Source: Proteromonas lacertae
Lineage: Eukaryota
DNA: 64,000 nt
Assembly: GCA_002245135.1 (NCBI GenBank)
Contig: NGBS01001162.1
Coordinates: 124,001 to 188,000 of the forward strand
Direction of reading: 5' to 3'
Shown: piece after piece, positions 15,001 to 45,423 of the stretch
How the letters are laid out: the number at the start of each line of letters is the position of its first letter
Position numbering within the stretch: the first letter of the stretch is position 1
Made by a program: the position numbers and the translations under genes
The notes under the pieces: model-generated
Seen by the model: the letters and a program-made list of their open reading frames with translations, nothing else
The model's database searches: none
Told to the model about the DNA's origin: nothing

Positions 15001-15104
15001 TACCATCGAATGAGCATCCTTTTATGGTGCCTAATCGCTATAAATAATAATAATATACTGGTGCTTGCTATAAACACACAGATAAAAAAGATTAAAATTT
15101 TCAT
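1..15104 (-). CDS. Giant (>=5000 aa, 3' end outside window) secreted/surface protein with putative Ig (He_PIG-like) repeats, three PA14 domains, galactose-binding/F5-8C-like domains and many HRM-like 4-Cys modules
   Basis: ATG at 15104 gives a signal peptide (MKILIFFICVFIASTS). GT-AG introns at 15031-15058, 2380-2412 (in-frame) and 1923-1956 join exon 1, the 4323 aa ORF and an apparently open frame running to base 1. Motifs: LPxGLxIDxxTGxIxGxP (He_PIG), GLxGEYY...NNFVVxWxGY (PA14), NLIDG...YTLWTAND...NPKSW (discoidin-like), Cxxx(G)WPxT...C...G...RxC...W...C (HRM-like). Confidence 0.88.
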
Positions 15105-15590: not shown

Positions 15591-18500
15591 ATGGAATCTT
15601 TCAAAATCTCTCTTGATGTTCTTGAAAAATACGCTTTTGCAGAAGTATTTTTTGTATGTTTATATCTCTAGGACAGAAGCGAGTATTTAAGAAGTATTGA
15701 TGCTGAGACTAGTCAGCCTTTGTTATTAGTATAAATGCTTCTATTATCATTATTATTTGTTATAGCTGTTGGATTTACTTCACTCTCCAAAAGAAAATGA
15801 GAAAAAAATTAGAAATCTTGTAGGAGGGAAAGTAGGTGTATTTAATCACAATGAAGCTATTGAAAAATTAGTTAATTATCGTATTAAGATGAATGGAACT
15901 GAAGATGTATTAGTAAAGTTCTTAATAGAAGAGTGGCATCTGCAATTTAACTTTAATAAGCCAGTATTAAATATTTGTAATAATAATATATAATAGACAA
16001 AAGGTAATTCAACAAACATTTCAGAATTACAAGATGAAAAAGTACCAAACGCTGTTGATGATGAAAGAATCAAGTATCCTGCTCAGTTAAAAACAATTTT
16101 AGATGATAAAAACGCATTATTCAAGTTGGAAATGTTGATTAATTATGTAGATATTCATAACAAAGACTTTTGTGAAGATTTATTAAAAGGACAATTTCAG
16201 TGTAAAATTGAAAAAGATGAGAGAATGAAAATAATCAAGTATCTCTATGAACAAGAAGTTTTAATCGAATTAGAAGGATATATGAAGTATATAAAAGAAT
16301 TATTAAAAGAGATAGAATATTGCAATTGTATATGTTATGATAAACTGACAATAAGTGATTTAGAAGATTTAATAAAGAATAATTCAATTGTATTATCACA
16401 AGATGTCTTCATAATTCATTACATTATTGAATTAGGAAGTGATATAAACAAGAAGAGTGATGATTATAAGGAGAAAGTAAAGATTTACTTTGAAAAGCTG
16501 TTAAAGTTTAACAAATTATTACCATCTGAAGAAAAGAGTATTACTTATAGTGTTTTATATTCTATATTATATACAAATATAATATTAAACAATGATTTTG
16601 ATGATAAATTATTCAAAGAGTGGATGAAAGCAGGTAAAACATACACTACCCATTTTCCATTTGATGATAATAAGATTAAAGCATATAATGATGATTCTGA
16701 AAGACAAATTTTCAACTGTATTATGAGAAATGTTGGATTAGACGGTGAAGTAGATAAATGTGGAATTACTAAGTTAATATATAAATACTTCTACCATTAT
16801 TATGAAATGAATAAATCAATTGATGATTTTAGCAGTTATGTTAAGAATGATTGGTTTAATAGACAGAAATATACTTTAAATGTATATTTTGATAGAGAAG
16901 TTACTGCCAGTTTGAAATATTTAAATGATAAAGGTTTTGCAGATACAGTAGAATCAATTGAATTAGAAATCGATGATTTTAACAGGACATACTTCCATGA
17001 AAATGAAATAATCGAAGTAACATGTTTCTTGAAGAACATTCCAGAATTAGAAATAAAAATGTTTGAAATTAATACACTAGAATTTAAAAAAGTATATATA
17101 TTATTCTAATTATTGTTATTTTGAATAGAGTAAAAAGTCATTAAATGAATGGATTAAAGGAAATGAATTAGATGGATTAATACCATCTTATGTAGATAAA
17201 AAAGACTATAACAACATCAAACATCATGTTTTACATAAAGAGTTATTCAGATTTGATAATATTAGATTCAATGGTGTTTATGTTATTGAATTAACAGGAA
17301 ATGGTCATCAAAGTAGAATATTGGTCAATAGAGGTGAAATTAATTACATTAAGAAAGTAACACCAGATGGTTATTTGTTTAACTTATTAAATGAATATAA
17401 TTTACCATATGATAATGAAAAATGCTCAATAATAATGAATGACAAAGAGTATAAATACAATAAAGAATGTAATGGAATATTAATACCATTCATACATAAA
17501 GATAATGATAGTTCAAATAATGATTTATATTTATGTGTAAAAGAGAAGAATGAATCAGCTAATAATACCAATCATATATATTCAATACCATTTAATTGTT
17601 ATTTACATCCTGAATCTTATGAATTAAGAATTGGTATGTTATTGAATAATGAACATGTATTACAAGGAAAACATAATAATCAGTTTATTATCCATCCTTT
17701 GTTATTGTTACAAAGTCAATATGAATGTTCATTATCATTATTACATAATATATCAATAGATATAGAATTACACTATTTAGATGATAGTAGAAGTAATCAA
17801 CATATCAACATCAAAGAATTATTAGATAAAATTGACATAACTCCATATATAACCATAGATGATAATTTGGTTGATATAAATGTGAAAATGGAAGGCGAAA
17901 TGGTTATTAATTATGAAAAAGTAAAGATCAGTGGTTGTTGCAGTTATAATTATGATAGAAACAGTCAAAAGAACATAATAACTCCATATTTAAGAATTAA
18001 CAACAGTGGTAATTATGAGTTGAAAATCTTAGGTCAAAATGGAGAAATAATCAAAGATTTTATAACCAATATAATATTCTTCAATACTGGTTTTTATATA
18101 CCAATAAAATATACTCTTAAAAGTAATGAGAATGGTATTATTGAATTAGGCAAATTGAAAAATATCAAAAAGTTAGTAGTAGAAAATGTAAGTATAGAAA
18201 TACCAAAACATAGAGTAGAATATCCAGATGATGTATCTTGTTTAGAAAGTGATGAAAATCAAATTGAATTGCCATTTAATAAAGAATTATATAGGTATTC
18301 GTTATTCTCATGTTGTAAAAGAACTAATTACAATAATAACATTGAAGTGAATGATACAAGTATGATTATTAAAGGTTTAAAAGAAGGAGAATATCTATTA
18401 AACATCTTCAATAAGGAATTAGTCAAAACAATTCATTTACACATATTGAGCAAAGAGAGTGTAGAATTGAATAATTATTACTTATCTAAATGTATGGTAA

Positions 18501-21500
18501 TAGAAAAAAGTAAAATAACAAAATATAGTTTAATACTACCACCTGTAATTAATGATGATAAAATCAAAATAAAAGTGAATAATTTCAACAATACATGTCA
18601 GATACATGTTTTGTGGAATTACTTTGTTAATAATTACGATATAAATGTATTACCAAAAGTTAGAAACTATTTGTTGAAAAATCAATCATATAAATATGAA
18701 ACTGCCATATTGAACAATCGTAGACTTAGTGATGAATATGTATATGTAAAGAAGCGTAAGTCATATCAGTTAGGTAATTTACAGAATAGACCATCATTAA
18801 TATTAGTAGAAGATAAAGTAAAACCAATTACTGTTAAATCTGCAAAAGTTTCTAATGGAAGTGGATTTGAATCATCATGTGATTCATCATGTAAGCCATG
18901 TATGTGTTCTGCTGGAGGAATGGGAATGGGTTGTGGTTATGGTTATGGTGGTGTTAATGTCAGTAATGGTACTGGTGGTACTATAAACAAACAAATATAT
19001 CCAAATTTCTTAAAACCATGTTTAATTGATTTTTATAATTGTGATGTTAATGATGATGGTTATATAGAAATACCAAAGAATGAATTACCTTTCTTTGATA
19101 ATGGTGGTTGTTTAACTATAATAGATCTTGATAATGATATTGGTAGTTGTTACAGTTATTCTGTTGATGATATAAAGAAAGAGAATCAACCATTTAGAAA
19201 TCTTACAATCAAGAATAGAGTTGATGTGAATTGTCATTTGACATTATGTAGAGTAATAGAACCAAAATACAAAAATCAAGAAATGATAGTTAATACAGGA
19301 GATGAATATAAGATTATCGATAGTTTACAGGATGTATATTCAATATTCAGTAGTTGTCATAAAGTTAATGAAAATGAATTGAACAAATTCAGATTCTTAG
19401 TACATTGGAGTGATTTGAGTGAAAAAGAGAAGTTAGATAAATATAATGAGAATATTTGCCATGAATTGAACTATTTTATTTACAAGAAAGACAAAGAATT
19501 CTTCAACAAATACATATTACCATTCATTAGTAATAAACTTGAAAAGAGTTTTGTTGATCTTTATTTGTTAAATTCAAATCTTGATGATTATTTACAATTA
19601 AAGAATTTCAAAGAATTGAATGTATTTGAAAAATGTTTGCTTTGTGAAAGACTTAATGAAAAAGGAAAATATATATTCAATCAAATAAGAGATGAGTTAT
19701 TTGATAAGATAGAAGATGCTAATGAATTTAATAGAATATTTGAAATAGTTTTCAAAATCAATAATGAGATAAATGAAGAAGATTCAAGTGAAGAAGAAGA
19801 AGAACCATGTGAAGAAGAAAATGAAGAAGATCATGAAGAAAATTCTTATAGATCAATAAATTCATTTGCAAAATATGCTCCTACTTCACAATCATACAGA
19901 TCATCTGAAATGGTGTTAAAAAAAGCAGTAAAGAAATGTAAAGCACCAATCCAAGCAAGAAGTAGAATGTTAAGAGGAGTTCCAACTCCTGGATTGATGA
20001 TGGCTAGAATGGCAGTAACAAATGATGAGATGATACCTTATCAAAAGCAACCAAAAACTCAACAAATAGTAGAAATGTCATATTATAACCATCATAGTTC
20101 AATTCAACCAAATTTACTAAAAGTTACAAAATATTGGGAAGATTATTGTGGATATATATTGAATCATAATAAAGATGAATTATTCTTAAGTAAACATTTC
20201 TGTTATGAAGATAATTCCATAAATGATATAATATTACTGTTAGCAACATTAGATTTACCATTCAAAGTAGATAAAAGTGTAGAATATGTAAATGAAAGTG
20301 AAGTGAATAAAATGGTAATGAAAAGTGATGTTATAGTATTCAAAAAGAGTTATAAAGAAGTTGATGGAAAAACAGATGAAAGAAATGTCTCATTATTATG
20401 TAAATTCTATGATCCAAAAGATAAAAAGGAAATAATCAATGGAGTGTCATATCCAAAATATAAAAAAGATAATAACTATTTAAGTGGTGTAGAGTATGGC
20501 TATTGTATTTATATATCAAACTATTTACCAATAAACAAAACATATAATATATTAATATCATTCCCTGAAGGAAGTATACCAATAGGTGGCTCATTATCAA
20601 CATATTCAAAAATTGTTACTATCAGATCATTTGAAACTCAAAAGATAGAATTAGGTAATTTTTATTTCCCAAATGAAGGTAAATATAAATTATATCCTTG
20701 CCATGTTAGTGGATTAAATGGTGATTTAGAAGGTTGGTGTGAAGCATATGTGTTTAATGTAACAAAAGAGAAAATCAGTATTGATGAAAATTCTTGGTTA
20801 GATGTGTCAAGTAATGGTAATAATGATCAAATTATGAAATATTTAAAGAATCATTCATTAGAATCTGTTGATTTGAGTAATATCTATTATAAATTGATAG
20901 ATAAAGAGTTTTATGAAATAATGATGAAATATTTAGAAGATAATTTACATTATGATGAAACAATATATAGTTTTAGTTTATATCACAATGATAAAAGAAG
21001 AATATCTGATTATTTATCCAACAACAAACAGTTAATTGATATTCTGTTACCATATAGTGAAAATACAATCCTGAAAGTAGATGGATATGAAAAATTGTTG
21101 CATTATCAACACACTGAATATAATCCATTCATCAATCCAAGAATTCATACTTTAAAACAAATACCCAGAATAACAAGTGATGAAATGAAGAAAACATTAA
21201 ATGATTTCTATTTATATGTTAGTAGTAAGAAAGTGTTAAATGATCATGATTATTATATCCATATTTATTATTTATTATTACAAGATCGAATTAAAGAGAG
21301 TGAAGAAATATTCAATAAATATATAGTGAAAGAAAGAAAGGATGGTATTCCAATTCCAAAGAATGAAGATTATAGATTACAATTTGATTATTTGTGTTGT
21401 TATTTTGATTGTTTCAAACTTACTCCAGAGTGTAGTAATGAAATAAGTAAAAAGTATTTAGATTATGGAATTGAAAGTTGGCGTACTTTATTTAAAAGAA

Positions 21501-22159
21501 TATACAATACAGTTAATAATAATACAAATGATATAAGCAGTTATAAAGATCGTGAAGATAGACAATTACATGTTTCATCAATTACACCATCTTTAGCAAT
21601 GAAGATAGATGCAAATGAAAATCAGTTGATAATCTCAAGTAATAACATAGAAGAATGTCAAATCAATTATTATATTATTGATACAGAATTGTTATTTAGT
21701 GATACACCATTTTTAAAGAAGATTGATTCATCAGTATATAATTATGTTTATCCCAATTACAGTGTAATTCAAAAGATAAGTGAAGAACATATGAAAATAC
21801 CAATATTGGATGAATTTAAAAAGAAAACAGGAATAATTGAGATAGTTTATAATGGAAATCAAGTTCATGAATTATATAATTATTGCTTATTCAGTGTGAT
21901 GATAAAAGAGAATATGGGAATATTGCAGATAATAGAGAATGAAAATCACAAACCATTACCTTGTGCTTATATAAAAGTATACAGCAAAGATGAGAATGAT
22001 AGAGCTGAGTTTTATAAAGATGGATATAGTGATTTGAGTGGTAGATTTGATTATGCTTCGATTAGTACAGATCAAATGGATAATGCTGTTGAATTTGGCA
22101 TTTTAATTATGAGTGAAAATCATGGAAGTTATATTACACAAGCAAAAGTGCCTAAGTAA
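15591..22159 (+). CDS. Large (~2144 aa) conserved hypothetical protein, similar to Dictyostelium AbpF / large bacterial hypothetical family
   Basis: GT-AG introns 15645-15671, 15729-15765, 15964-15996 and 17092-17128 join three listed ORFs into one frame. Recalled family motifs: LEKYAFAEDR, ELDGLIP, GVYVIELTGNGHQSRILVNRG, HTEYNPFINPRIH and C-terminal YIKVYSK...FYKDGYSDLSGRFDYASIST. The family name is from memory. Confidence 0.75.
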
Positions 22160-22269: not shown

Positions 22270-25200
22270 CTAATGCTTTGTTAATGTCGCAATTTTGTTC
22301 AACTGCTTATTTGTAGTGAAAGTTCTTGACATATTTCCTGTTGCAAATGACATACTACTTAGTTGATGGGTTGATCTAGATGTAGTAGACACACTAACAC
22401 CTAAGTTTGTGTTATTAGCTATATTAGCAGATCCACTTAATGTATCATTTTTTGCATCTTCATCATAATGTATAACAACTATTTTTATACCATATTCTAA
22501 TATATCAATAATTATCACAGATAAATTAATTCCCATAGATCTTAATAGAAGAACCGAATCAGGATCAGTATTGATATTAAAATCAAGCAAAACCATGATT
22601 GCTCCTAACACTAAAATAACAGAAGATGATATAAATAAACTCAATGTGTCACTATGTTCATTAGCTAAATTTTTAGTTGAATTGGACAATATAAACAATA
22701 TTAATGCTGGTAAAAAATCACTAACTAATTCAATTGCTATGAATGGTGTTGATATTGTACATTCTCTAATTGTAACTTCATTAAAATAGTCACTTTCTGA
22801 TGAACTATATGTTCCAACATACTCATTTGGATCAATTAAAAACCATAATAACAACAAAAGTGTTTGAAACAACATAAATGCTATCCAAAAAACAAATGTT
22901 CTATAAACTGTAATTCTTGTCTTTTTTATTGATCCTTTTATTCTAAATCTCTTCTTGTACAACTTTGTTTCACTTGACATAAGCACTGAAAGTAAACACT
23001 TTACACCAAGACTTAATAACACAACTCTTGCTGTACAAACTCCGTTAGAAGATGAAGGATAAACATACATTGGAATTGATCCAAAAGTAACAACAAATAA
23101 TGATAATACCACACCATAATTATGGGCTCTTCCTAATACTTTAATGATTAATTGCTTTTGATGAATTATAACAAATACTAAACATACAATATTAAGTATC
23201 ATTGCAACTCCAAATAATACATATGCAATACTTAATATTCCTGTATTGTATTTATAAAATATGTTATTCTTTCCAAATTTACATTCTGTTGGTAATCCTG
23301 ATGGATATGGTTCAGCTTCAAACAAATGTTCAGATCCTCTAGTAGGGAAAACTTGAATAAACTTAGCATTTCTATTAATCTCAAATATATAGGAGTTTCT
23401 TGATGAATATAATGATTCTTCTATTTTTATACTTCCTGATGGAGCACTTATTTCTAATCCTACACTTGACAATTGGAAGTATCTTAATGGAGGTATAACA
23501 CTATTCGAATCAGCAGCTGCATTCTGATATACTTCTTGCCAAATCATAAATGAAGTTTTAATAGATTCAAGAGTCTCATCTATTACTTTATTAACGCCAA
23601 CAAAGCCTTCTGTCGTACTAACGAATGATTGAGCTAATGATGTAGAAATAACAGAATCAAATCCAGTCACAACTAAAGAACCATATGCAGATGATAATAT
23701 TTCACTTGTATAATCATTTGAAACATAATTCAATATTGCTACAATTGCTTCACGACTAGTCAATCCATTTGAAGTATATTTGTTAAAGAAATTCTTACTA
23801 ATATCTCCTGATAAGTAATACAATATAGCTACCCTGTCATATTCATCCCTCTTCTGTTGAATTGAACTAATTGCATTATTTAATGAACTTTCAACACTAT
23901 TAGGATTTATAGTAAGTCTAACTAAATTATGTTTATTCTCTTTGTAATGATCTTTCACATAATAATTTACTATTGTGTAATATGAATCGATAATATCTGA
24001 ATCTTCACCTATGAATATTAAACATTTAATTTCTGGTTCAAAATTGTGCAAATAATACTCAATAGACAAAAATCTTTGGGATGCAGTAGATCCAGAAATG
24101 ATATGATTTCCGTTACATGTTCCTCCTTCATTTAAATCGTAAGAAATCCATATTCGATTACTCTTTTTAGATATCTCTTCTGCATTCTTTTTGCATGCTT
24201 CAGATTTACATCCAAAATAAGAAATAACTTCATTATCATTGATATATTTACTTGATAAATTACTAAATTGATCATAAGTAGATGCAAATATAAACTCTGG
24301 TATTAATCTCTGATTATTCAAACCACCATTAGTATTTAGTTCTTGGACTAAAGAATATTCCATTAACATTGAGTTTACTTCAATTTCTTTAGATTCAGTA
24401 TTATCATCATGGAAAAATATCAATTTTAATGCTTCTGGTCTAAATCTATTATTATTATTTTCTTCTAATATTCTATTTTCAGAATCACTTGTAAAGTCGC
24501 ATATATAACCTTCATTTTCAGGGAATAAATGATTCCATGCTTCTGCTTTTTCACTTTGTGATGCATAATCAGCAATTGAAAGTGTTTTATCTTGAGCTAT
24601 TTTCACTAAATACACAATTCTGTTAGTAAAACCATCAGAACTCATTTCTATTGTTCCTGAAGGTGCAACTGTAGTATATCCATACAATGCTTTACCAACT
24701 TTATCATTATCAAATGACATAGTATAAGATATAATAACATTAGCCCACAATCTTACAGATGTATAACCACTTTCCATTGCTGCTGTAATAATACAATTTT
24801 GACCATATCTATCATTCATACTTGTTACAAAGCTTTCAGAACTTGATTTAAAAGTCATTGTGTCTGAAGAAGATAAGCCCATTTCTTTAATGAATGAAGT
24901 AAGGATATAAGCACCATCTAGGCACTTTCCATCAATATAATCCATTAAATATCTATCTAAACTAACAGATACAACATAAGTATTCTTCATATTGATATTA
25001 AATCCACATAACCAATTGAATAGTTTAATGTTATTTTGTTCTGTAACACTAAACAAGACTACTGAATTTTTATCCAACTTCTTAGGATCAAAACCTTCTG
25101 GAACATAATTCTTATTTGATTCAATATCACTTAAATTGTATAAGTGGAAATCTAAATTGATATTATCACATAAAACCTTAACTCCTCTTGCCAATTGTTT

Positions 25201-28200
25201 GCTAAATTCTTCATCATCTTGAAAAACATACACATGATATGTATAAGGTAATATATACTTCCAAACACCGTTTATCAGTTGATTAGAACTTAATTGAGTT
25301 GAAATAGTATATCTTGGACATTCTTCAGTAATAGTCAAACCATTAAAGAAAAACAATTTCTTCTTTTCTTCAAATATTGTATATATATTAAGAGCAATAA
25401 CAGAATTTGCAACTCCAAAAACAACAACAACTTCATCAAGTCTACATAATTCTTCAGCATAAGTCTTATAGAGATCAATATCAGATTTTGCATCTTTAAT
25501 TAATACTGAAATCATTGTACCAATAATACCACCATCTTTATTGATTTCATCAATTGCTTGAATAATTCCTTGGGTAATAGATCTTTCAGTTGTATTATAC
25601 ATGCCACTGTATGATGTTAAAATTCCAATTGTCTTTGATGTCTTTCTATACATTTCTCCATATCCATTTTTAAAATCACAAATATACTTTGCATTATTCA
25701 CCCAATCTTTATAAGGTATTGATTCATATATACTTGCAGATGTAAATATAATATCGAACCCATAATTCTCATCATTTTCTTTCATCTTTCCATATATAAT
25801 ATATTGATTAATATAATTATTAAATCCAATATTCAGATTTCCACCACTTGGTGATGCATAATTTAAATTATAAAACTCATTTCTTAATGCATCTGCTTTC
25901 ATACTCTGCAATTTATTAACTGTGGTTATATAGATATCACTTGATATATATGCAGTATACATAATCTCACTGGCATAATTTGTAACAGATAATATATCAT
26001 CCTTCATTTTAGTATTATGAGTATTATCTAAATTAGTGAAATAAGTCTGAGCTGAATAGAATGATTTTACACCTCTTGCTGCAGCATTTGATGCTGTTGA
26101 TAATGACACTATATTATATTTACCTCTATTTGCTTTATTTACATTTTCTGTTAATAATTTATCTAATAAATAATGTAAACCAGAATCACCATAGTATAAA
26201 ATGTAACAACCATATTCACTGGTAGAAGCAATTAGTGCTTTTACAGCATCTGTAATAATTTTGGTGGAGTCTTTATCATCTGATGATGAAGATGAGGATG
26301 ATGAAGAAGATGAGGATGAGGACGAATGAGATTCTGATAAATCAAGAGTATTGGACGAATAATCAATATTAGCACCAACAAAATCCAAATAACTGTTAAT
26401 ATAACTGTAATACTTTGATCCAACGTCATCATTTGTGGTTAATACACAAAAATGTAACGTTTCTGGTTGTGTAGGTTCCATAATATAATCAATTATTCTT
26501 CCTACAAAACTTGGCTCCTTCAACATATAAAATACATTTTCATAACAAGTTTCTCCTCCTGTATAACCAATTTCGAACAACGGTATATTCTTTTCAACTA
26601 ATAATGGGTTTATACTCTTAAGACATAGAGATGTAGCTGTTGTAAATATCACCCCTTGTTCTACTTGACTTAAATATGCTCTTAATAACTCAATACAAAC
26701 ACTATCACTAGACTGTAGATCATAACTTTGAATAGTAACTCTTTTATTCAATAATCCATTTCCATTATTGTTCAAATCATCAAATAATAATTCAAAGATA
26801 TTCAATACATATAAATCAGTCTCTCTATATTTACCAGAAATTGATAAGCCAACAGCAATTGTAATAGTATCAACTTTCTTTCCAGATCCAACACTAGGAT
26901 CAGTGAAATCACATATTAATCCGTCTGTTTCTTTAATATCCCAACTCCATGCTAATGGTTCTTGAATTCTAGTTTGACTGTAAATAGATTCTAATATACT
27001 TGTTCCATCTTTGTGAACCACTTGCATTATAAAATATGGTAAAGAAATATGATTATTATCAAACATCATTGTTTCACCAGTACAACTATCTATATTTGAT
27101 CTATACAACTGCATTCTTATTAATGTTTTATTGTGATATCCTACTTTTTCAACAGCTTTACTCCAATACATTAATGCTAAATAGGAACTGTGAGCTAATT
27201 CATTTGCATCTAATTTGTCACCATAACTACTTCTAAAAGATTGTCTGAATCCACATTCACTATTAATTTCATCAAAAAAAGAACCACCAAAGAAAAGATT
27301 GATATTTCCAGATAATGATAATGATGCTAATATATTCCTATCACTATTAATAGATATAACAAAAAATTTATTAGTTATTGTATTACCTGATTTAATATGT
27401 GCATCTGTAACTAAACTATCAAAATAATTTATGAAATCTATTGAAGTAGTATCATCTAATGTAAGAATAATAACACATCCTGTTGTTACATACTTTTCAA
27501 CTATTTTACTAGCTAATGAATGAGTTGTTCCACTTCCTGATTCTACTAAATCATTTCCAATAACAGTAAACAATTCAGACAGCGCATTATCCAATATTGT
27601 ATTAATTAAAAAGTTACTGTCAGTATTTGTACCAATGAAGTATAATGAATTATCCACTGATGCTTGGTCAATATAAGTCGATAGTGATTTTGTGTATGTA
27701 CTTGGCAATAACCCTGTATAGAATATATTTTCATCACATTCTTGACCTTCAAATTTAGCAGGATACCATAAATATTTACTATATTTTGTTGATTTAGAAA
27801 AAATTTCATTCACTTTTGTTCTACATATTTTGTTTGTACATCCAACAACAAATATAATATCTTCATCATTCAACACAATATTTGCTATGTTTGTAATATT
27901 ATTCTCATTGGTGGTATCAAATATTATATAATCAAGATATAAGTCATGCAAAGTATTCTCACTATTCAAAGAATCAATTGAAGCAATCATTATATCTACA
28001 GCTCTTAATTCATATTTTTTATTCTCACCTGTAATAGAATACAATAATGCAACTTTCTTATTCTCTCTTTCAAGTAATGAACCTCTTTTTACTTTATCTG
28101 TTTTTGATATTTTCCATTCACAATAATACATTGTATTGTTATTTCCATATTGTGCATTGTATGGGTTAATATGATTAAGATCAGACGATTCTACTAATGA

Positions 28201-31200
28201 TTCTATTGTATAACTCTTATTGTTCGGAAAATAATGAACTTGAACAAGGTCGAGATGTAATGATATTTGATTATTTGAATTAATAACTAAATTATCGATT
28301 ATTTGACTAACATCTGTATGATGAACAGCATTAAGTAAATCTTCAAATGAATATGGAACAAAACCTTCTTCACCTGTATCTTCAGCGAAATTGATTGATA
28401 ATAATGCCTTTGCAGCAAATAATACTGACAATATAGCAGATGCTGATGCTTCTTCTTTAATGAAACTGTATCTATTATCAGCTATTTTATAAATACTATC
28501 ATCTTTAAAATGTTTTCTTTTGTATGTATCTATAAAGTAATGTCCATCAAATAATTCCCAATAAGAATCGTCAATAATATCAGGTAATTTTACATTATAC
28601 GACAGAATTGTATATGTTGAAGAATCATAATTATTCTTTTTTATCTCTAAGAACAAATCAGTAGCTGCAGTTCCTTCCAATAATGAAATAATTATACCAG
28701 ATTTCATACTGCTTATAATAATATTCATAATAATATCCATTTTGTAGTTAGTAATTGGTATTCTTAACACATTTGCTACAGAAATACCTCTTTTTGTTAA
28801 TTCATACTGAACATTCAAAGCATTCTTATAATTCATTTCAGTGTCAGTATACAGCACAAATATATCTCTCATATCTGATCCAGGTAAATAGAAATAAGCT
28901 AATGTTGAAATATATTCCGTAAATGGGGTATTCATATAAATAATATTCTCACTACATTCATAACCTTCATATAAAAATGGATAGAATAAAAGTAATTCAT
29001 TATCAGCTAAATCATCCATAACATATTTTCTCATTTCTGAGTTTGATAAACCAAATATAATTCTATTACCTGTTTCATTTATTGCTTTTCTGACATATTC
29101 TCTTGCTAAATCATTATCTGATTCTATATTTATAACTTCTGTGACAATCATTCTTTTATTAATGCCATGAAAATATTCATTAACATAATCAACAGCTGCT
29201 AAATATCCACTAACCAATGATCTTGAATTGAATGAATAAGTTCCAGTAAATGAAATCAATATATAGAATTTCAATGAAGTATATGTCTCACCTTTTCCTG
29301 TTTCCTTTGAACAGATTTTATATTCGTCTTCATTGAAACCATGTCTAAAACTTTGAGCTGGCCAATTGACTGATATAGTTGAAACTACATCAGTAATTCC
29401 TCCTGGCTTCATTTGTAAAATAGTAACAGGGAATGGTATATTTGTATCACTATCAGACATCTTTGTAACACCAAATGATGATTCTAATTGATAAGTACTT
29501 AAATATTCCATTATTTTTTCATTACTAAAATCTCCTAATTCTTTATATTCTCTAACTAGTAATTCATATGCAATAATTGCTCTTGTTTCAACTTTTGGCA
29601 TTTGATATGATCCACCAAACATATTTACTCCAATATTGTATATATTTGAAGCTGTATATTTGTCAGAATGACAACTGGCTAATGCATATTGCTCTTCAGT
29701 GTAATATTGGTCTATTTCCATGAATGTTTCTTTCGAAAAACTAAAAATTGGGACTTTTTGTGAAGCTTCAGCTGAACTTGTGAATAAATTAGTAAAAGCA
29801 CTTTGATATACTTTGAATAAAGTCAAATAACTTTCTGTAGTGGTTAAATAATTCAAAATAACACCTCCTTCTGGTATATATAGTTTATAAGAAGTCAAAA
29901 AGTCAGAAATATTTTCATTCATTGATGATGGATTTGATTCATTAACAACTAAATGTCTTTTAACAAATCCACCTAAACTTGATATTGTATCTAGAATCAT
30001 GTTATTATCAATATCTGGTAATTCAGTTGATGTAATCAACATGATATTTGGAGAAATATAACTCACAATATAACCAATAAATGCAATAACTCTTTGACTT
30101 GGGAATGTACCAAGATCAACACTATTATAATATAATTAAAAACAAAGAAATATACATTCTTTTATCACAAATATCAGCATTCTTGTTAATTAATGAAATT
30201 AATAATAAATCAGGGTTTTCTTCTAAAAATTCATTCTGTTGTTCAACTGAACAAGTTGTTATAGCAACTGAAGAAGCATTCATTCCATTAAACTCATCAC
30301 AATAATACTTAACCAATATCTATTAGGATTAAAATAATAATAAAAATATATACTATGTTATAATTCATATCATTATAATTAGATAAATACATATCTAACA
30401 AAAGCATTAAAGATTCTTCATTAGTGTTAATAACTAAATTAATTACTAATGGTTCTGAATTATCACTCACTAATGTACAAGCTTCTGTATCTCCGTCATT
30501 TCTCTATAAAAAGAATAGTAAAAAGCAATTATATACATAAGCTAAATAAGCTGAAATTGACATAGGCATGATTGTCTGTAAAATAATAGTATAACCTTCT
30601 CCTTCTTCTAAATCGTTCATTTTTATTAGAACATATGAATTTGACAATACCATATCATCTCTTAATTGTATTTCTCCAACTGGTAAATCAAGAGTAAGTC
30701 CTTTCAACTGTCTTTTAATTTCCTCATATGAATAATCACTAGCTTGCTCATATACTGTTTTTAATATCATCATTGAAGTATATAAATTTAAAATATGTTC
30801 ATTCAATAATTCACTATTATTACCAAATTTTGAAGTAAAATCATTGACAAATATTTCATTCTGTTGATTGGATCTACTATCTCTTGTATAGGATGTAAAC
30901 ATCAAATGTCCATTCCATATTTCTTTATCATCAACCCATTCTATCATTGTATCAAGACTAATGACAGTATAAACAGCAGGATCCATATCCTTATCTCTCA
31001 TTAATCTCAGCATAACATTTATATCTTCCCCTAACACTGTAAATATCATCATTCTTGTTGTTTGAATTTCTTTTAGTGTATCTGTAGCATTATCTAAAGA
31101 ATATGTTGAATTGAGATATATTGTTATATAATCAATCTCTCTGAATGTATCAATAGTAAGTGCAATTGCCTTACCAACATCATGACAGAATTGGTTATCA

Positions 31201-34140
31201 CACATAACAATTGCTGCTTTCTTTTCTGGACAATATTGCCATATTGTAGCTATTGAAGCAAATGCATAATGATTAGGAACTCTTCCTACTTGAATGATAT
31301 TTGAATAACATCTTTGACCTTCACCTGGATGAAAGCTGAATAATATTTTCTTCTTCTCTACTAAAACATCAGCAAGAGCATCTCTTTCTGGATTGCTTGT
31401 AGTTCCAAAATAAGCTAATAAATCTTCATCATCACTATTCTCTTCAACGTATTTCTTCATTTCATCGATTGTGTTAAATATTTTTAAAATTGCTTTCAAC
31501 AATTTGTTATTTATTCCGTCTTTCATATTCATATAATCTGACATTATACTTGAGTATAATTTATAATTGTTCATATAACGTTCTACTTGAGCATTAGTGA
31601 TATATAAGAAAACAATCTTATAATATGGTCTATTAACAGTCACACCATCAATCCAAGAACATTGTATACTAGTATCAGTAAATGCATTAGTTGATATAAC
31701 ATAAGATGATGATAATATAACTTCCACACTTTCTGTATCATTATGAATCTTTCCAATATGTAATTGAGCTGAAAGTGTTCCTTGACTATTCCATTCTACA
31801 TTACCACCAGGTCCTGGAATACTAGAAGCATAGACAATCATTTGGTTGATTGTATCTCTATCATCATTTCTTGCTAAGTTGACAGCATTCGCTAATAACA
31901 TCATACTTACATAACTAGTAGCCATAGAAGATGAATAATGTTTGATTGTTACATCGCTAAGCTCATTGATTCTTTCCTTAAATTCATTACTGTCTGTTGT
32001 ATTCAAATCCTCAAAATAATAGCCAATAACATAAGATCCATCATACTATAAAAAAAACAATACATAAACATAATATATATATATATATATATATACATTT
32101 GTCCATCCATTATCAGTATTATCCATTACTTCTTCATCTAAAGTAAATGAAATAACTGGATGATTCACATTATCATGGACAATTTCATTGTACATACTGA
32201 AAAACACTTGTAAATAATCTCTTTCTAATACATTAGCCACTAAACAACCATCTGTGCATCTTGAATTTATAGCTGCGCATACATTCAATGCTTGTTCTCT
32301 ACTTCCATCTTTCATTACTTCATATATTACAGTATTGAAGCCACCATATTCATTAGTAATATTCTTTAACGATGCAGTTGCCGCTTGTGAATACATACCT
32401 TTACTTGACACTACGAATAATGTCTTAAATGTAACTATATTAGTGAATTCCTGTACAACAAATTTCCACATTGAATATACACTTATTCCTTATAATTATT
32501 AAAGAAAATAATAAATTTAATAGCATTAAAAAAAGATATAGGAATAACATTCTTCTTACAGAAATTACTTCCATCAGGTTGAAGAGATATATAAGTATAT
32601 GAAGTAATGTTATGACCATCAATTTCACTTAAGAACTTAATTGTATCTTCAATCGAAGATGTACTAAATGAAGTTATTATATTGTAGACCTTTCTATAAT
32701 CAGTATACTCCTTATATAACTGTTCACTACTTGCAGATATATCCATGTAAATTGGTACTATTTGTTTATTTAATACCGGTTTCTATTAATTGAATATTAT
32801 AAATTATATAATATATCATACTTCAGCATTTAAATAATTAATTGCAGCTTCAAATGCGTGTATAATATTCTCATCATATCTTGACAAGTTTCTAATTGTT
32901 ATATCTTCATGGTAAAAGTTTCTGTATGTAAATAACAATACATATAATGCATCAGGTTTGTACAATGAATCAGATACTAATTGATTGCAAATGTATTCCC
33001 TTGGAAAACCATTTGTAATTGTATATGATACTTCTAATGACAATTGAATAGGTTTATTATCTACTATTTTATCATTCGTTGAATCTACTTTTGCCAAATC
33101 AACAATTGTTGCAATTCTATTACCAGGAGTTAAACCTACTTTCATTTCCTCATCACCACTTTTATATATTGTAATATACTCATCATTATTATATCCAAAG
33201 TACACTATATCACTTCCACTTTTGAAATTACCTTTTAAATATTCATTACCAATTGTTATATATAATTTGTACATTGAAAATAATATAACTGATTCTATAT
33301 TTAAGTCTTTGTTTGTTAATGCTGTACCACTTCCACCGATTTCAGTAAGTAAAGTTGGAGGTATTTGTGCATTTTCACTGAGTATATATGAGTCATCACT
33401 GCTAGCACTATGATAGACAACTTCTCTTGGAACAACTGGCATGTTGACCAATTGGACTTTTTTACCTGTTGGAAATGTTCCAGCTTTCCATTCATCAATT
33501 AAATCTGTGGTACTATAAAAATTGAGTATGTAAACTTCAGATATGTTTGACGTTTGTAAATAAGTGGTAAGTGAAGTAATGATTTCATTTGCTTTATCTG
33601 CTTTTTTATCTACCTCAGTAACTGAAACACGAGCGAAATTAAATAGTTTTATTGTTTCAGTAATGAATGTTCCTAATTTATCCTTCTCATCTGAATCATA
33701 AGCTACACAGACGTTTTCAAATCGATTGATTTCTTTGGATATAGTATATAAACTTGATGAAACTGTATCATAACCAAAAATAATGTTAGAATAACAAATT
33801 GGACTTGTATAAGGTATAATATTCCAAATATAAATATCATATGCAACAGCTACTTCGTTTATCATATTATAATCAGCAGATTTGAAGTAAGGCAAACACA
33901 GTATCGATATAATTTTTCTTAAACTTTTCAAATTCTGAAATTAATGAAGTATTTGTTATTTCCATCTATTTTTATCTTTTTTAGAGTATATTCGGTCGTT
34001 GTAAAGTAAGTGATTATTGAATCAACACCTGTTGGTAAAGTTTCTCCAGTAGAATATACAAAAGGTCGCTCTAATATAATGCATAGTACATTATCGCAAT
34101 AAAAAGCTAATACTAAGAAAAACAAATTAGAAAACGGCAT
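22270..34140 (-). CDS. Receptor A: ~3875 aa class C GPCR-like protein; signal peptide + 9 tandem UrtA/AmiC-type periplasmic-binding (Venus flytrap) domains + 7TM
   Basis: Introns 32783-32821, 32490-32539 (AT-AA), 32046-32096, 30504-30536, 30320-30353 and 30122-30155 join six listed ORFs. The junction with the first (signal peptide) ORF near 33930 is unresolved. Repeats carry UrtA-like motifs (IGILTSYSG..TERS, AIDEINKDGGIIG, LLFYPFLYEGYECSENI, WYPAKFEGQECDENIFYTG). Seven hydrophobic segments lie at ~23240-22480, including a CTARVVLLSLG TM3. Confidence 0.85.
26278..26325 (-). repeat. TCN trinucleotide tract encoding a poly-Ser insertion in VFT domain 7 of receptor A
   Basis: GATGATGAAGATGAGGATGATGAAGAAGATGAGGATGAGGACGA on the + strand; protein reads SHSSSSSSSSSSSSSSDD. 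Confidence 0.8.
32490..32539 (-). other. U12-type (minor spliceosome) intron, AT-AA termini, in receptor A
   Basis: 5' ATATCTTTT, branch-like TTCTTTAAT 8 nt before the 3' end ...TATAA|GGA. Removal gives CKKNVIP|GISVYSMW in frame. The paralog has a phase-0 intron at the equivalent position. Confidence 0.75.
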
Positions 34141-35574: not shown

Positions 35575-36390
35575 TCAATCAGGCATTACAAATACTTTTG
35601 ATTGAGAAAATATCTTAATAGCATCTTTTGTTTCTTTCAATTTCTCTTCTAATTCTTTCTGCCTTCTGATCATACTTGGTGTTTCAATAACTAAAGGCAT
35701 TCTTCTAAGTGATTCTTCGATTTGTGCAGCAGTTTCTTCTAATGTTCTGAGTGTGCTTACTCTTTCATCATCTGGTAATAATACCATACCTGGTGGACAA
35801 TCAGGATCAGGCATATTGGCTAATCTTCTTTGTTCTTCTCTACTTTGTTGAATTTTTCTTTTTATCAAATAATCTGGAACTTGTCCCTTTTGATGAGATG
35901 GATCTACAGGTGGTACTAATGGCTTTGGCTCGAATTTCTTTGGTTCCATTTTCAAAGCTTTTGATTTATTCACTGTAATGAAATCTTTGGGTGGTGGAGT
36001 TGGTTCTTTTTTTACTATTGCTGATGGTACTGATGGTTTTCTTTCTTCTTTTCTAACAAATGGTTTTGATGGAGCTGGTAATGGTTTTTCTGTCTTTTTC
36101 AAGAATTCATGTTTTTCTTTTGGATGATACTTTTCATTATCCATTTCTTTTTCTATTCTTGGTTCTACTTCTTCAAACTCCTTCATTTTGTACGGTTTTC
36201 TATTCTTTATTATTTCTTCGAATTCCTTTCTTTCTTGAGTTTTACTTTCTATTTCATCAATTACTTTTTTGTTTTGTGATATATAATCTTTTGGTTTTAT
36301 TCCCTTTCTTTTCATATCATCTCTAATTCCTTGAGATGGATTTAAAAGTGCAGCAACTGCTGATCCAGAGTTTCTTTTGTAATAAGTCAT
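35575..36390 (-). CDS. ENKD1: Enkurin domain-containing protein (ENKD1-like)
   Basis: Intronless 271 aa ORF. C-terminal enkurin domain GQVPDYL...PDPDCPPGMVLLPDDERVSTL...LEEKLKETKDAIKIFSQSKVFV. Confidence 0.85.
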   Translation of the reverse strand: MTYYKRNSGSAVAALLNPSQGIRDDMKRKGIKPKDYISQNKKVIDEIESKTQERKEFEEIIKNRKPYKMKEFEEVEPRIEKEMDNEKYHPKEKHEFLKKTEKPLPAPSKPFVRKEERKPSVPSAIVKKEPTPPPKDFITVNKSKALKMEPKKFEPKPLVPPVDPSHQKGQVPDYLIKRKIQQSREEQRRLANMPDPDCPPGMVLLPDDERVSTLRTLEETAAQIEESLRRMPLVIETPSMIRRQKELEEKLKETKDAIKIFSQSKVFVMPD

Positions 36391-36573
36391 TATGATAAAT
36401 TTTATATAAATTCAATGATTGAATAAAACAAAAATTTGAATTTCAGTTTTTAAAAAATCAAACTTTTCATCAAACTAATTTTAACGAATATATTTTTATT
36501 ATAATTTTTCATCAACAAACAATTCATACGATAATAAACACATTACTAAATATAATAATAATACTATCAATCG

Positions 36574-38936
36574 TTATATATCTTTCAAAGAAGCGTTAAT
36601 CTCATTCTCAATATCATCTAAATTAAAATCTGATCCAGTTCTACTATCAGCCATTGGTATATCTAATTCACTCATAATATTATCAATAGAAAACGAATCA
36701 GCACTACCTTTCTTTGTAATTTGAACATTTTCTTCTTCATCACCATCTTTATTAGTTTCTTGTTCAACTGCTGGTAGTGGTGGTTCTTCTGAATGTTGTT
36801 GTTGTTCTGTATTGTCACTATGTTTTGGAGAATCATCAAATAAAGAAAATTGATCATTTTTATTATCTTCATTTTTAGCAGTATCAGTGGTTGTTGTTGT
36901 TGTTGTTGTATTATCTACACCAACAGGTTTATCTTTAGTAGGTGATGGAGTATTAGAATCAATTTGAAATAAACTATCATTATCATGAGGTGATAATGTT
37001 TTATTAATAATATCTTCATACTTCGATTGGTTAATAGATGGTAATAATCTCTCCATATATTCACTATTTTCATTATTACTGTCGTTGAATAAATCATTGT
37101 TATTATCATCAGCTATCTTTTGATTGATTACTTCATCTGTTAATATGTTATTAATTGGTGCATTTCCTAATAATAAATCGAATAATTGATTATCTTCTTC
37201 TGATTGAATGGTAGGTGGTGGAGTTGGAACTGATTCATAGTTATTATTATTATTATTATTATTATTTGTAGAAGAATCTATATCATCTATTTATATATAA
37301 TATATATATATAATACCTGGATTTCTAGATTTCTTCTTATTCTTCCTACTATTATTGCCATTATCATTGCTACTATCTATTAATATTACAGATGGTGTAG
37401 TTTTCTTGGAAGGTGAAAACTTCTTATTAAAGAACAATTCTTCTTCTTCTTCACTATCATCATCATCTTTATCTGTAGATGTATCATTAGGTAATCTTTC
37501 TTCACCTGGTTTTAATGGAGATGTGATTTTACTATTCTTTTTCAAGGGTGAACTCATTCCATATTCTTTTTCTACTACTTCAATATCTTTTAAAAACTAT
37601 ATTTATATATTTATATATTATACGTTTTTCTTCTTTTCGCTACCAATCACTAAATCATTCAATTCACCTCTTTCTAATGGCTTTCTTTTCAATTTTCTTT
37701 CATTTACTTCATCCCAAAAAGATTTGTTGGAGGTTAAGACTTGCTCATATATATCACTAGCATCTGTTGAGGGAGATTGTTCTTGACTATATAAAATAAA
37801 ATAAAATAAAATATACTCTGTTAAGGCATAATTATCAAAATGTAACTCTACACTAAAGTTTTGAGGGAATTTAATATTTTGATCTTTTAATGGACCATCT
37901 AATTTATAAATTGGTAAAATTAATAAATTATTATCTATAAAACCAGTATGAAAACCACATCTAAATAATGTTACTGGTCTTCCATCATCTAGTACTTGAG
38001 TACAACGCAATAATATATTTCCTTGTAAAAATAGATCCGTTTCATATTTAAAACACTTATTTTCTATTTTAGTGTTGTTTAATGTTGCTAATTTTGTACC
38101 ACTTTTATATATTCTTATTTCTGGTGTTTTCTTCAAATTAGTTAATGGGTTGTTATAGATTAATATACTCTTTAATATTAATGAAGAATTAGAAGGATGA
38201 ATTCCATTTAATACTTTGTCAAAATAATGGATATATCTTCTCTGAGTAGGTACTGTTAAGGACATGGATGATTCATTTCTTTTTTCACTTATATACTCTA
38301 ATCCATATTGAGCAGAAGGTGCCAAGCCTGACCAAGCCAAAAAACAAGAAGTTGTAGTGATTGTTCTACCTCTACCATTGAGACAATGAATTAAAACAAC
38401 ATTTAATGGATCAGCTGATAACCAAGATTCTACTGTCCAAGCTATTTTGAATAAAACACCTAGTGGAGGTGCACTATAACCAGGAAAGAAGAATTCCACC
38501 ACACAATCATTGAATATAGATGTGTCATAGTGTTTATCAGATATATTGATGATTAGAAAATGACCTCTATGATGTTGATCAAGATAATCTGAAATTACTT
38601 CTTCTCTTGTTTTACCTATTCCTGGAGCATCTTCATCAGAAATTGGATAAGCCATTACTATTAATATTAAATATTGCTTAGAATATACTTATTATCCTTG
38701 GAGCTATATAAATCATATCGCTTAAACGACCTGATATTACTTCATTCAAACGTTTCTTTGTATCTTCTTTTAATATTTTAAACTCCTGTTTTGTTTTATC
38801 TTTAGCTGTCTTTACTTTTTCCTTAAATTTACTATATTCTTCGCTTTCCAGAAAAGTGTTCATCTTCTATAAAATATAGATTTTCTAAACATACAGATGA
38901 AACCTTAGCTCGTGTTTTATTCCAGAAATTAGACAT
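36574..38936 (-). CDS. PTEN/tensin/auxilin-type phosphatase domain + C2 domain protein with a long acidic low-complexity tail
   Basis: DMIYIAPRII|MAYP, HHRGHFLIINIS, HCLNGRGRT (CX5R), VPTQRRYIHYF, LFRCGFHTGFI, FPQNFSVELHF. Start MSNFWNK at 38936; about 5 GT-AG introns link the listed ORFs. Confidence 0.82.
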
Positions 38937-39101
38937 GAAAAAAAGGATTAAAGAAGAAGAAGGCTCGAGAGTGAATCCAAACTTGTATATTACAACACAC
39001 TGAATATTTACTTCCACACCTTATTAATGTAATATTTATATAAATAACACATCATTAATACAAATAAATTACAAATAAAAAGAATAACTACAAAATTTTG
39101 T

Positions 39102-39477
39102 TCATTTTCTTTTGCTTCTCATTCTATGTTTTATTAAATTATCTACACTCAAACTGACTGGTATATCAACATATTTTATCATCCTTCCTGGTATAAATAT
39201 CATTTCTAAGTGTATTTTCTTACCCTATATACTAACAAATGTATTCATACATTTCGAAATGTTTCTGTTGCATTGACAAGTATAACGCTAAATAATATAA
39301 ACAATAAATATCTACTTCATATCTCTCTCAACTCCAATTAGTTGACCATAAACAATATCATCAGTTTTCATCTCTACATTTATTCTTTTATTCTTTATAA
39401 ATACTATATAAATCATATACAATTAGACTTTCAAGAATAATCTCTAAACCAAAACGACTATTACTCCCTTTTCCCAT
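39102..39477 (-). CDS. LSM10: Sm-fold protein most similar to U7 snRNP-specific Lsm10 (not in the ORF track)
   Basis: Three 26-28 nt GT-AG introns removed give MGKGSNSRFGLEIILESLINKRINVEMKTDDIVYGQLIGVERDMNVILVNATETFRNGKKIHLEMIFIPGRMIKYVDIPVSLSVDNLIKHRMRSKRK*, with Sm1 and Sm2 motifs. Confidence 0.7.
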
Positions 39478-39631
39478 TATTGATGTGAAACCTTTATATA
39501 TAACTATCAACGAAAATTATTATATGTACAAACCTGTATTTTATTGGTAAATTCAGTTTATAAAAAAAAATGTTTGACTCGAAAAAAACAGTCATTTCAT
39601 ACTAACAATAACAATAAAATTAAATATTATT

Positions 39632-42168: not shown

Positions 42169-42507
42169 AGCTGAGTACTAGTTTACTATTAGTTTTATAA
42201 ATTACTCTCTTATTAAATTATATGAAAGAAAATGATATTTTTGTACACACTCTGAAAACTGCATATAGAAGGATTTATTTAGAAATAATAATATTATTTT
42301 ATGTACCTATACAAATCAACTACCATTTTCTTTTAAATAGAGGATGATACATGAATGTGTATAAATTCATCTCACCTAAAACACCTTTATTTTATCTTCT
42401 AATGTGTTAAGTGTATAAAATATAATATGTCAAACCCCTTTTCTAACTCATTTAACACATACAGAATAATTACATTAAAAAATAGTTGTATTAAATATAA
42501 TTACATT

Positions 42508-43817: not shown

Positions 43818-43934
43818 TACTAAAAAAAGAGTTGTTAGAAATTATTTTTGAAAATTCAAATTTAAAAACAAAAAATCTCATAATATACTCAACATTATTT
43901 GTAAATAACTAATATATATCGTTTTATTGCTTAT

Positions 43935-45386: not shown

Positions 45387-45423
45387 GTTTGTGATTGTTG
45401 TTTAAATCTTCAATTTTCTCTCG

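What the first reader, a model, noticed from the sequence alone, without database searches (positions are those of the whole stretch)
24490..29280. Repeats retain UrtA-like terminal signature, suggesting bacterial origin and a conserved disulfide
Seen: repeat ends EPLAWSWDIKETDGLICDFTDP and AEAWNHLFPENEGYICDF, plus internal (Y/F)EGxECxxNI. From memory, cyanobacterial-type urea ABC binding proteins (UrtA) end in a PWNQ...KG(Y/F)ACDW.DP motif and contain YEGQECS. Inference: the receptor ectodomain was built from a laterally acquired ABC-transporter binding protein, the two cysteines pair within each repeat, and urea or short amides are candidate ligands.
Basis: partly seen in the sequence, partly recalled or inferred. 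Interest (0 to 1): 0.7.

Follow-up and report, generated by a model that had tools for sequence, protein, structure and literature searches.

The report
Nine-trap receptor from bacterial urea binder
This stretch is part of a eukaryotic cell-surface receptor gene whose outer part is a chain of about nine modules most similar to bacterial urea-binding proteins; these copies have lost the urea-gripping residues and likely sense other molecules, while relatives in chytrid fungi and other microbes keep them and would be urea-sensing receptors.

Summary
The quoted motifs are real. They lie in repeats 5-8 of an intron-containing class C (7tm_3) receptor gene at about 34,140-22,270 (minus strand), with about nine tandem type I binding-protein repeats. 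By profile, pairwise score and predicted fold the repeats are closest to cysteine-bearing, cyanobacterial-type UrtA, then AmiC, and far from LivJ and animal Venus flytraps. Trees are unstable, and a LivJ grouping was not rejected (AU p 0.70). The two cysteines are the best conserved columns in 157 paralogous repeats (94%, 93%), so a disulfide is likely but was not measured. Urea is not supported: the seven window repeats scored keep 0-1 of five essential urea residues. The follow-up found the same UrtA-plus-7tm_3 fusion in six chytrid species and in unnamed eukaryotes, one with nine repeats. There the distal repeats keep the urea pocket and the membrane-proximal repeat does not (13 of 13 proteins). 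Best reading: an old UrtA-derived class C receptor family, expanded and re-specified in this AT-rich lineage. Ten literature searches found no description of it, though bacterial-binding-protein/7tm_3 fusions in general are known.

The parts
32822..34140 (-). Putative first exon: ATG, hydrophobic signal-peptide-like start, weak repeat 1 and start of repeat 2. The reading frame shifts twice (near 33970 and 33900): assembly error, an unrecognised intron or 5' decay
   Evidence: three-frame translation; R1 scores only 8 bits, iE 3e-4, with the paralog profile; inferred
32783..32821 (-). GT-AG intron, 39 nt
   Evidence: joins frames without a stop; predicted, no RNA evidence
32490..32545 (-). Unresolved AT-rich junction inside repeat 2, with no in-frame GT-AG pair that keeps the conserved Cys
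31650..32960 (-). Repeat 2 (interrupted by introns; Cys in SNFC and IQCSW); contains GT-AG intron 32046-32096
30449..31646 (-). Repeat 3; CysA 31310, CysB 30479; intron 30504-30536
29298..30437 (-). Repeat 4 (most worn); CysA 30169, CysB 29313; introns 30320-30353 and 30122-30155
28092..29298 (-). Repeat 5; YEGYEC; CysA 28956, CysB 28122; keeps S122, Y141 and E146 equivalents; pocket best conserved among orthologues
   Evidence: TIGR03407 E 1.6e-19
26874..28077 (-). Repeat 6; FEGQEC; CysA 27738, CysB 26913; second Cys pair 27840/27825
   Evidence: TIGR03407 E 9e-27; AF2 pLDDT 92
25641..26886 (-). Repeat 7 with a poly-Ser insert (about 26280-26335); CysA 26547, CysB 25680; second Cys pair 26697/26625
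24462..25656 (-). Repeat 8; CysA 25320, CysB 24501
   Evidence: TIGR03407 E 1.3e-33
23253..24456 (-). Repeat 9, membrane-proximal, joined directly to TM1 without a nine-cysteine domain; CysA 24117, CysB 23283; second pair 24210/24195
22500..23220 (-). Class C seven-helix domain (7tm_3); TM3 and ECL2 Cys kept, TM3 Lys replaced by Glu, TM7 PK replaced by IK
   Evidence: Pfam PF00003 E 6.8e-18, above the curated cut-off; seven hydrophobic segments and alignment
22270..22499 (-). Ser/Thr-rich cytoplasmic tail and stop codon

Best explanation
The finding is repeats 5-8 of a class C (7tm_3) receptor gene whose ectodomain is a chain of about nine UrtA-like binding-protein modules that have lost the urea-binding residues and likely sense other, unknown small molecules or act as scaffold. 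Shown: the architecture, UrtA as nearest family by similarity and predicted fold, pocket loss, near-invariant cysteine pair, and a large paralog family. Inferred: (1) a cysteine-bearing, cyanobacterial-type UrtA domain entered eukaryotes long ago and was fused and multiplied in front of a 7tm_3 domain; (2) CysA (EGxEC loop) and CysB (terminal CD[FW]) form a disulfide that pins each module's C-terminal arm onto its N-lobe, so the fold survives while the pocket drifts; a second, variable pair braces the pocket loop in R6, R7 and R9; (3) distal modules bind ligand and close, and the pocket-less membrane-proximal module relays this to the 7TM, as the intact-distal, degenerate-proximal pattern in relatives suggests; (4) in this AT-rich lineage the family expanded into an orphan chemosensory repertoire. 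G-protein coupling of this copy is uncertain because two class C activation motifs are altered.
For: Architecture. UrtA affinity; the best-scoring reference set for 61 AT-rich repeats was intact eukaryotic repeats 43, Cys-type prokaryotic UrtA 16, Cys-less UrtA 2, AmiC-like 0, LivJ/K 0 (mean bits 47, 44, 33, 19, 0.6). Without long outgroups the AT-rich clade (SH-aLRT 99) lies on the Cys-UrtA/eukaryote side (99), also after dropping the Cys loop and terminal arm (98). Pocket: essential residues from PMC10392092 (passages); window 0-1 of 5 in 7 of 7 repeats; of 157 paralog repeats 98/49/8/2 keep 0/1/2/3 and none keeps 4 or 5; controls keep all five in 162 of 216 mostly prokaryotic domains and 16 of 38 GC-rich eukaryotic repeats. 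W120, Q144 and N246 columns are in the 94th-98th entropy percentile. Cysteines are the top two columns, 94% and 93%, against a Cys background of 1.3%. Second pair: 77 of 77 repeats with C93 have C88 or C69, against 4 of 85 without C93. Repeats are position-orthologous (47-62% to the same repeat of P0002, 12-18% between repeats).
Against: Trees with distant outgroups disagree. FastTree put LivJ/K inside the AT-rich repeats. The AU test did not reject AT-rich plus LivJ/K, and that tree had lnL 10.8 higher (p 0.70). The careful tree placed the clade outside UrtA, next to TIGR03669-like proteins (90/93). No animal VFT sequence was in any tree. The AF2 model was built from an alignment rich in UrtA hits, which biases the fold ranking. 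The disulfide distance was not measured; 36 bacterial signalling domains carry CysA without the terminal arm, and the passages search of the UrtA paper found no 'disulfide'. Repeats are not independent, so the covariation p-value is inflated. Splicing is predicted only, and the 5' end has two frame breaks and one odd junction. TM3 Lys to Glu and TM7 PK to IK (motifs per PMC3727952 passages). No ligand data.
Confidence: 0.66

Rival explanations
1. One reading: the repeats still bind urea or short amides, using a remodelled pocket.
For: UrtA and AmiC are the nearest solved relatives. R5 keeps S122, Y141 and E146 equivalents, and 7 of 8 pocket positions match its orthologue P0002. Relatives keep the whole pocket.
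Against: Single mutations of W120, S122, Q144, Y190 or N246 strongly reduce or abolish binding in UrtA (PMC10392092 passages). Window repeats lack 4-5 of these; none of 157 paralog repeats keeps 4.
Confidence: 0.08
2. The ectodomain is a rigid, ligand-blind stalk or adhesion/protein-binding surface, and the 7TM is a non-coupling partner or anchor.
For: Pocket columns are among the most variable; an extra Cys pair sits in the pocket loop; 7TM activation motifs are altered; about 3,400 aa ectodomain with 17 N-glycosylation sequons in R2-R9.
Against: Repeat order and identity are kept between paralogs, and the R5-type pocket is partly conserved, which suits function at specific positions. Several paralogs keep the TM3 Lys (P0007, P0015, P0024, P0030).
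Confidence: 0.2
3. The repeats are an independent or much older offshoot of the LivJ/AmiC/UrtA superfamily, and their UrtA look is retained ancestral character or an alignment artefact; the AT-rich, chytrid and dinoflagellate-type fusions arose separately.
For. Chytrid 7TM domains are only 11-18% identical to the others, so the chytrid fusion may be separate.
Against: LivJ/K score 0.6 bits on average against 44-47 for Cys-type UrtA. The terminal W...CD[FW] arm is shared with Cys-type UrtA and absent from the Cys-less UrtA, AmiC-like and LivJ references. P0005 has the same nine-repeat-plus-7tm_3 layout and a 7TM 27-28% identical to AT-rich paralogs.
Confidence: 0.12
4. This copy is a decaying pseudogene.
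For: Two frame breaks in R1 and a non-canonical junction in R2.
Against: 3355 codons open through four GT-AG introns; 57% identity over the full length with P0002 and a shared intron position at its start.
Confidence: 0.1

Closest known systems
Cyanobacterial UrtA, urea ABC substrate-binding protein (TIGR03407; PDB 7S6E, 7S6F, 8HIC)
   Same: Type I PBP fold (Z 44, rmsd 2.7, 375 aligned), EGxEC loop, C-terminal W...G..CD[FW] arm, 22-23% identity.
   Different: Tandem modules fused to a 7TM, not a free transporter subunit. 60-116 bits per full repeat (21 for the partial R4 exon) against a cut-off of 493. Urea residues lost.
Class C GPCRs (Pfam 7tm_3; GABA-B-like, without the nine-cysteine domain)
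   Same: 7tm_3 above the curated cut-off, TM3/ECL2 cysteines, large bilobed ligand-binding ectodomain joined directly to TM1.
   Different: About nine flytrap modules instead of one; the module is UrtA-type, not ANF_receptor (ANF hit in 1 of 6 repeats, E 2e-4); TM3 Lys and TM7 Pro changed.
Non-metazoan class C receptors with recruited bacterial binding proteins (Bmp, OpuAC, SBP_bac_1, LysR_substrate; gut-fungal SBP type II receptors; diatom receptors)
   Same: Same principle, a bacterial-type binding protein fused to 7tm_3 (PMC3251606, PMC5168858, PMC3727952 passages; a generic 'Peripla_BP//7tm_3' row in the PMC3971589 supplement).
   Different: None of the passages seen names UrtA, urea or long tandem arrays.
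Chytrid two-repeat UrtA-7tm_3 proteins (e.g. KAJ3101170.1, Phlyctochytrium bullatum) and unnamed P0005/P0035
   Same: PF13433 repeats plus PF00003, both cysteines, degenerate membrane-proximal repeat.
   Different: Their distal repeats keep the urea pocket. They are annotated only as hypothetical or periplasmic-binding-domain proteins.
Pseudomonas AmiC and bacterial UrtA-like sensor fusions (histidine kinase, adenylate cyclase, Ser/Thr kinase)
   Same: The same domain is used as a sensor rather than for transport.
   Different: These mostly lack the terminal Cys arm and signal through non-GPCR outputs; AmiC scores lower (76 against 155 bits).

Membership tests
UrtA (TIGR03407) | Score above curated cut-off 492.75 bits | tested here: not met
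   60-116 bits per full repeat; 369 summed over the ORF
UrtA (TIGR03407) | Essential urea residues W120, S122, Q144, Y190, N246 | tested here: not met
   0-1 of 5 in 7 of 7 repeats scored, R3-R9
UrtA (TIGR03407) | Free subunit of an urtABCDE transporter | tested here: not met
   fused to 7tm_3 in an intron-containing gene; no ABC subunit family among the 13 window ORFs scanned
UrtA-like lineage (descent) | Nearest family by profile, pairwise score and fold | tested here: met
UrtA-like lineage (descent) | Nested in Cys-type UrtA in a phylogeny | tested here: inconclusive
   yes; no; LivJ grouping not rejected
Type I periplasmic binding protein fold (Peripla_BP_5) | Pfam match and bilobed alpha/beta fold | tested here: met
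   6 of 6 repeats match; AF2 pLDDT 92, pTM 0.92
Class C GPCR | 7tm_3 domain with seven helices | tested here: met
   65.7 bits against cut-off 33.5; seven segments
Class C GPCR | TM3 Lys/Arg, TM6 acidic residue, TM7 PK, extracellular Cys pair | tested here: inconclusive
   Cys pair and TM6 Asp kept, second basic residue Lys; first Lys is Glu and PK is IK (motifs from PMC3727952)
Class C GPCR | Dimerisation and G-protein coupling | not testable with these tools
   needs experiment; no genome was held to look for G-alpha
Metazoan ANF/GABA-B/mGluR Venus flytrap | ANF_receptor as best family or fold match | tested here: not met
   ANF weak in 1 of 6; GABA-B Z 30 and E 2e-14 against UrtA Z 44 and E 8e-27; not tested in a tree
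Intra-repeat disulfide CysA-CysB | Bonding distance in a structure | not testable with these tools
   model coordinates are not returned; conservation only

The most novel reading that the evidence does not exclude
An undescribed family of class C GPCRs built from cyanobacterial-type UrtA exists in several eukaryotic lineages. Its intact-pocket members (chytrid two-repeat receptors, the nine-repeat P0005) are genuine urea-sensing GPCRs that work by a distal-sensor/proximal-relay chain of flytraps. The AT-rich lineage of this window turned the same scaffold into dozens of multi-trap receptors, each able to read several different ligands on one polypeptide.
Probability: 0.4. Interest if true: 0.8.

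Novelty: new variant of a known kind. Interest (0 to 1): 0.6.

Why it matters
Class C receptors are usually described with a single flytrap. A chain of nine raises a clear question of how distal binding reaches the membrane. The family also shows both ends of an evolutionary path: members with a letter-perfect urea pocket (direct, cheap candidates for a urea GPCR and for nitrogen sensing in chytrids and protists) and a lineage in which the fold and its cysteines were kept while every pocket was rewritten. For this window alone the result is more modest: an orphan receptor whose ligand is probably not urea.

Tried and rejected
No genome was held, so G proteins, urea metabolism and paralog counts in the organism could not be checked. 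A word-index search with repeat 6 found nothing. Locus searches gave no result (alignment too diverged; no answer). No RNA holder was listed, so splicing is untested. ESM Atlas returned only generic bacterial Peripla_BP_6 clusters; a second query got no answer. The terminal-Cys regex undercounted (missed CDH, CNH, CSK and others) and was replaced by column counts. In one search three AT-rich fragments (P0047, P0085, P0130) fell into the 'mostly prokaryotic' bin, so 11 rather than 14 of its both-Cys domains are putatively non-AT-clade. The careful tree did not finish; the quick tree is quoted. Recent direct transfer into this organism was rejected: GC3 0.155 against 0.126-0.168 for four other long ORFs, introns, and shared fusions elsewhere. 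No complex prediction was run. My guess that the host is a Blastocystis-like protist is recalled and untested; the ten AT-rich clusters looked up are unnamed Logan proteins. Earlier-findings look-ups gave nothing relevant.
Full report
1. Observation. The finding lies in one minus-strand ORF, 30135-22270, 2621 codons. Both quoted repeat ends and two copies of (Y/F)EGxECxxNI are there; none of 2000 shuffles reached these counts. Each full motif is in 2 of the 4 repeats covered, and only the cysteines are in all four.

2. Gene anatomy. Pfam finds six Peripla_BP_5 stretches and a 7tm_3 domain above cut-off in the ORF, and more Peripla_BP_5 in the upstream ORFs. Four short GT-AG introns join 32489-22270 into 3355 codons without a stop, holding the back half of repeat 2, repeats 3-9, seven hydrophobic helices and a tail. 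A fifth intron links a further 452 codons upstream. A signal-peptide-like ATG lies at 34140, but repeat 1 has two frame breaks, scores weakly (8 bits) and the junction inside repeat 2 is unresolved. So eight repeats are firm and a ninth is probable. Splicing is predicted only. Repeats are 12-18% identical to each other but 47-62% identical to the same position in homologue P0002, so the array is old and ordered. The host is an AT-rich (about 26% GC) eukaryote with short introns; I did not identify it.

3. What the repeats are related to. TIGR03407 (UrtA) is the best NCBIfam match in 7 of 7 repeats scanned, far below its cut-off. A profile of six repeats scores solved UrtA proteins 154-159 bits, AmiC 76, LivJ 24, and lists no animal flytrap among 20 hits. 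An AlphaFold model of repeat 6 (pLDDT 92) matches UrtA best (Foldseek E 8e-27; Z 44.1, rmsd 2.7, 375 aligned), then AmiC (E 1.5e-21; Z 40), Liv-type proteins (Z 31-36) and GABA-B (E 2e-14; Z 30); its alignment was rich in UrtA hits, which biases this. Single-sequence scoring of 61 AT-rich repeats favoured intact eukaryotic repeats in 43, Cys-type prokaryotic UrtA in 16, Cys-less UrtA in 2 and AmiC-like or LivJ/K in none. Trees are weaker. With a mixture model the repeats nested among eukaryotic repeats inside Cys-type UrtA (98 and 96), and without long outgroups they stayed on that side (99; 98 with the Cys loop and terminal arm removed). But FastTree drew LivJ/K into them, the AU test did not reject that grouping and found it 10.8 lnL better (p 0.70), and a careful tree put them beside TIGR03669-like outgroups. 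I read this as long-branch attraction; that is an inference. Trees used 33-154 of 560 extracted domains, and no animal flytrap sequence was available for them.

4. The wider family. The profile search of 1.84 billion representatives gave 4114 hits at E 0.001; I examined the 150 listed. About 40 are AT-rich multi-repeat proteins, many ending in the same 7TM; the ten clusters looked up are unnamed. Pfam confirmed 7tm_3 plus Peripla_BP_5 in 8 of 41 hits scanned. Among these are GC-rich proteins: P0005 (3745 aa, nine repeats by Pfam) and P0035, unnamed, and P0052, KAJ3101170.1 of the chytrid Phlyctochytrium bullatum. A search with P0052 added six proteins from five more chytrid species with the same two families, two multi-repeat proteins with other C-termini (one from MMETSP), and many cyanobacterial and planctomycete signalling fusions (120 of 147 hits listed; candidates capped at 7989). 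P0064 is from the dinoflagellate Yihiella (group name recalled). Chytrid 7TM domains are only 11-18% identical to the rest, while P0005 is 27-28% identical to AT-rich paralogs, so there may be more than one fusion.

5. Ligand. In Prochlorococcus UrtA, mutating W120, S122, Q144, Y190 or N246 strongly reduces or abolishes urea binding, and these residues are reported as strictly conserved (PMC10392092, passages). Window repeats 3-9 keep none (4 repeats) or one (3 repeats). Of 157 paralog repeats, 98, 49, 8 and 2 keep zero, one, two and three; none keeps four or five. Controls: 162 of 216 mostly prokaryotic domains and 16 of 38 GC-rich eukaryotic repeats keep all five. Only domains of at least 300 residues were counted. 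Urea binding by this receptor is therefore unlikely. Repeat 5 has the most conserved altered pocket (7 of 8 aligned positions equal in P0002), a lead only. In 13 of 13 GC-rich multi-repeat proteins where it could be read (six chytrid proteins, P0201, P0202, P0204, P0205, P0185, P0035, P0005), the membrane-proximal repeat keeps 0-1 essential residues and a more distal one keeps 4-5; P0200 and P0142 had only one domain tabulated.

6. Cysteines. CysA and CysB are the two most conserved columns of the 157 paralog repeats (94%, 93%; Cys background 1.3%) and both are in 7 of 7 window repeats scored. Among 23 other domains with both positions covered, 14 had both (3 are misbinned AT-rich fragments), 8 neither, 1 only CysB and none only CysA; 36 further domains had CysA but no terminal arm. 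A second pair emerged: C93 occurs with C88 (45) or C69 (32) in 77 of 77 cases, against 4 of 85 repeats without C93 (162 repeats, 41 proteins). The repeats are related, so these are not independent events. A disulfide is likely for an extracellular protein, but no distance was measured and the UrtA paper's text has no 'disulfide'.

7. Mechanism. Shown: architecture, similarity, pocket loss, cysteine conservation. Inferred: a Cys-type UrtA domain was captured by eukaryotes early and fused to 7tm_3; disulfides hold each module while pockets diverge; distal modules sense and the proximal module relays, comparable to the non-binding flytrap of GABA-B2 (recalled). This copy's 7TM has Glu for the TM3 Lys and IK for the TM7 PK motif (motifs from PMC3727952 passages), so it may signal through a partner or not at all. 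Rivals are listed with their odds.

8. Known or new. Fusions of bacterial-type binding proteins to 7tm_3 are known (passages of PMC3251606, PMC5168858, PMC3727952, PMC3971589), and the PMC3971589 supplement lists a generic Peripla_BP//7tm_3 architecture (one file not searched, and figure counts are not readable). Term searches in PMC12842992 (text and supplement), PMC12716839, PMC11291939, PMC13345962, PMC5447177, PMC12129017 and PMC12965686 (95, a GPI-anchored single flytrap of Entamoeba) showed no UrtA-type receptor; I saw passages only, no whole text. Ten library searches listed no paper on UrtA-derived or tandem-flytrap class C receptors. Subscription papers and unseen supplements could hold one.

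9. Verdict. Observation confirmed; interpretation partly supported (UrtA-like origin and disulfide likely, urea not supported, transfer old). New variant of a known kind. Interest 0.6.

Noticed in passing
window 47038-58465 (+): A second, more diverged receptor gene of the same kind over several ORFs: at least eight weak repeat matches to the paralog profile and a 7tm_3 domain (E 3e-22) that keeps the TM3 FKTWR and TM7 FVPK motifs.
   Followed up: partly
window 32545-32490 (-): The junction in repeat 2 would start ATATCTTT and has a TTTTCTTTAAT stretch about 10 nt before its end, resembling minor-spliceosome (U12) signals as I recall them; or it is an assembly error.
   Followed up: no
P0142 / P0185 cluster, P0204, P0205: Two UrtA-like repeats (distal intact, proximal degenerate) plus a membrane segment fused to a glutaminase domain (P0142) or to other C-termini with PF07699 (P0204, P0205): the same sensor pair on non-GPCR outputs.
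   Followed up: partly
P0066, P0082, P0090: AT-rich single-repeat proteins with 2-3 N-terminal membrane segments and Cys-type UrtA domains, unnamed; one grouped with eukaryotic repeats. Origin unknown.
   Followed up: no
window 1931-15037 and 1-1926 (-): A 4368-codon ORF and a truncated continuation built of many Ig-like and Cys-rich repeats, probably a giant surface protein (domains judged by eye, not scanned).
   Followed up: no
window 35575-46668: Neighbouring genes with Pfam hits to Enkurin (35575-36411), PTEN-like phosphatase/C2 (37618-38688), glycosyltransferase 4 (44530-45000) and PARP (46144-46668).
   Followed up: no
L002 2408-3607: A Treponema saccharophilum UrtA-like gene with an intact urea pocket lies between an adenylate/guanylate cyclase and a chemoreceptor gene rather than in an urt operon.
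   Followed up: no
window 15997-22159 (+): Long convergent gene with no Pfam match in its 1676-codon ORF.
   Followed up: no
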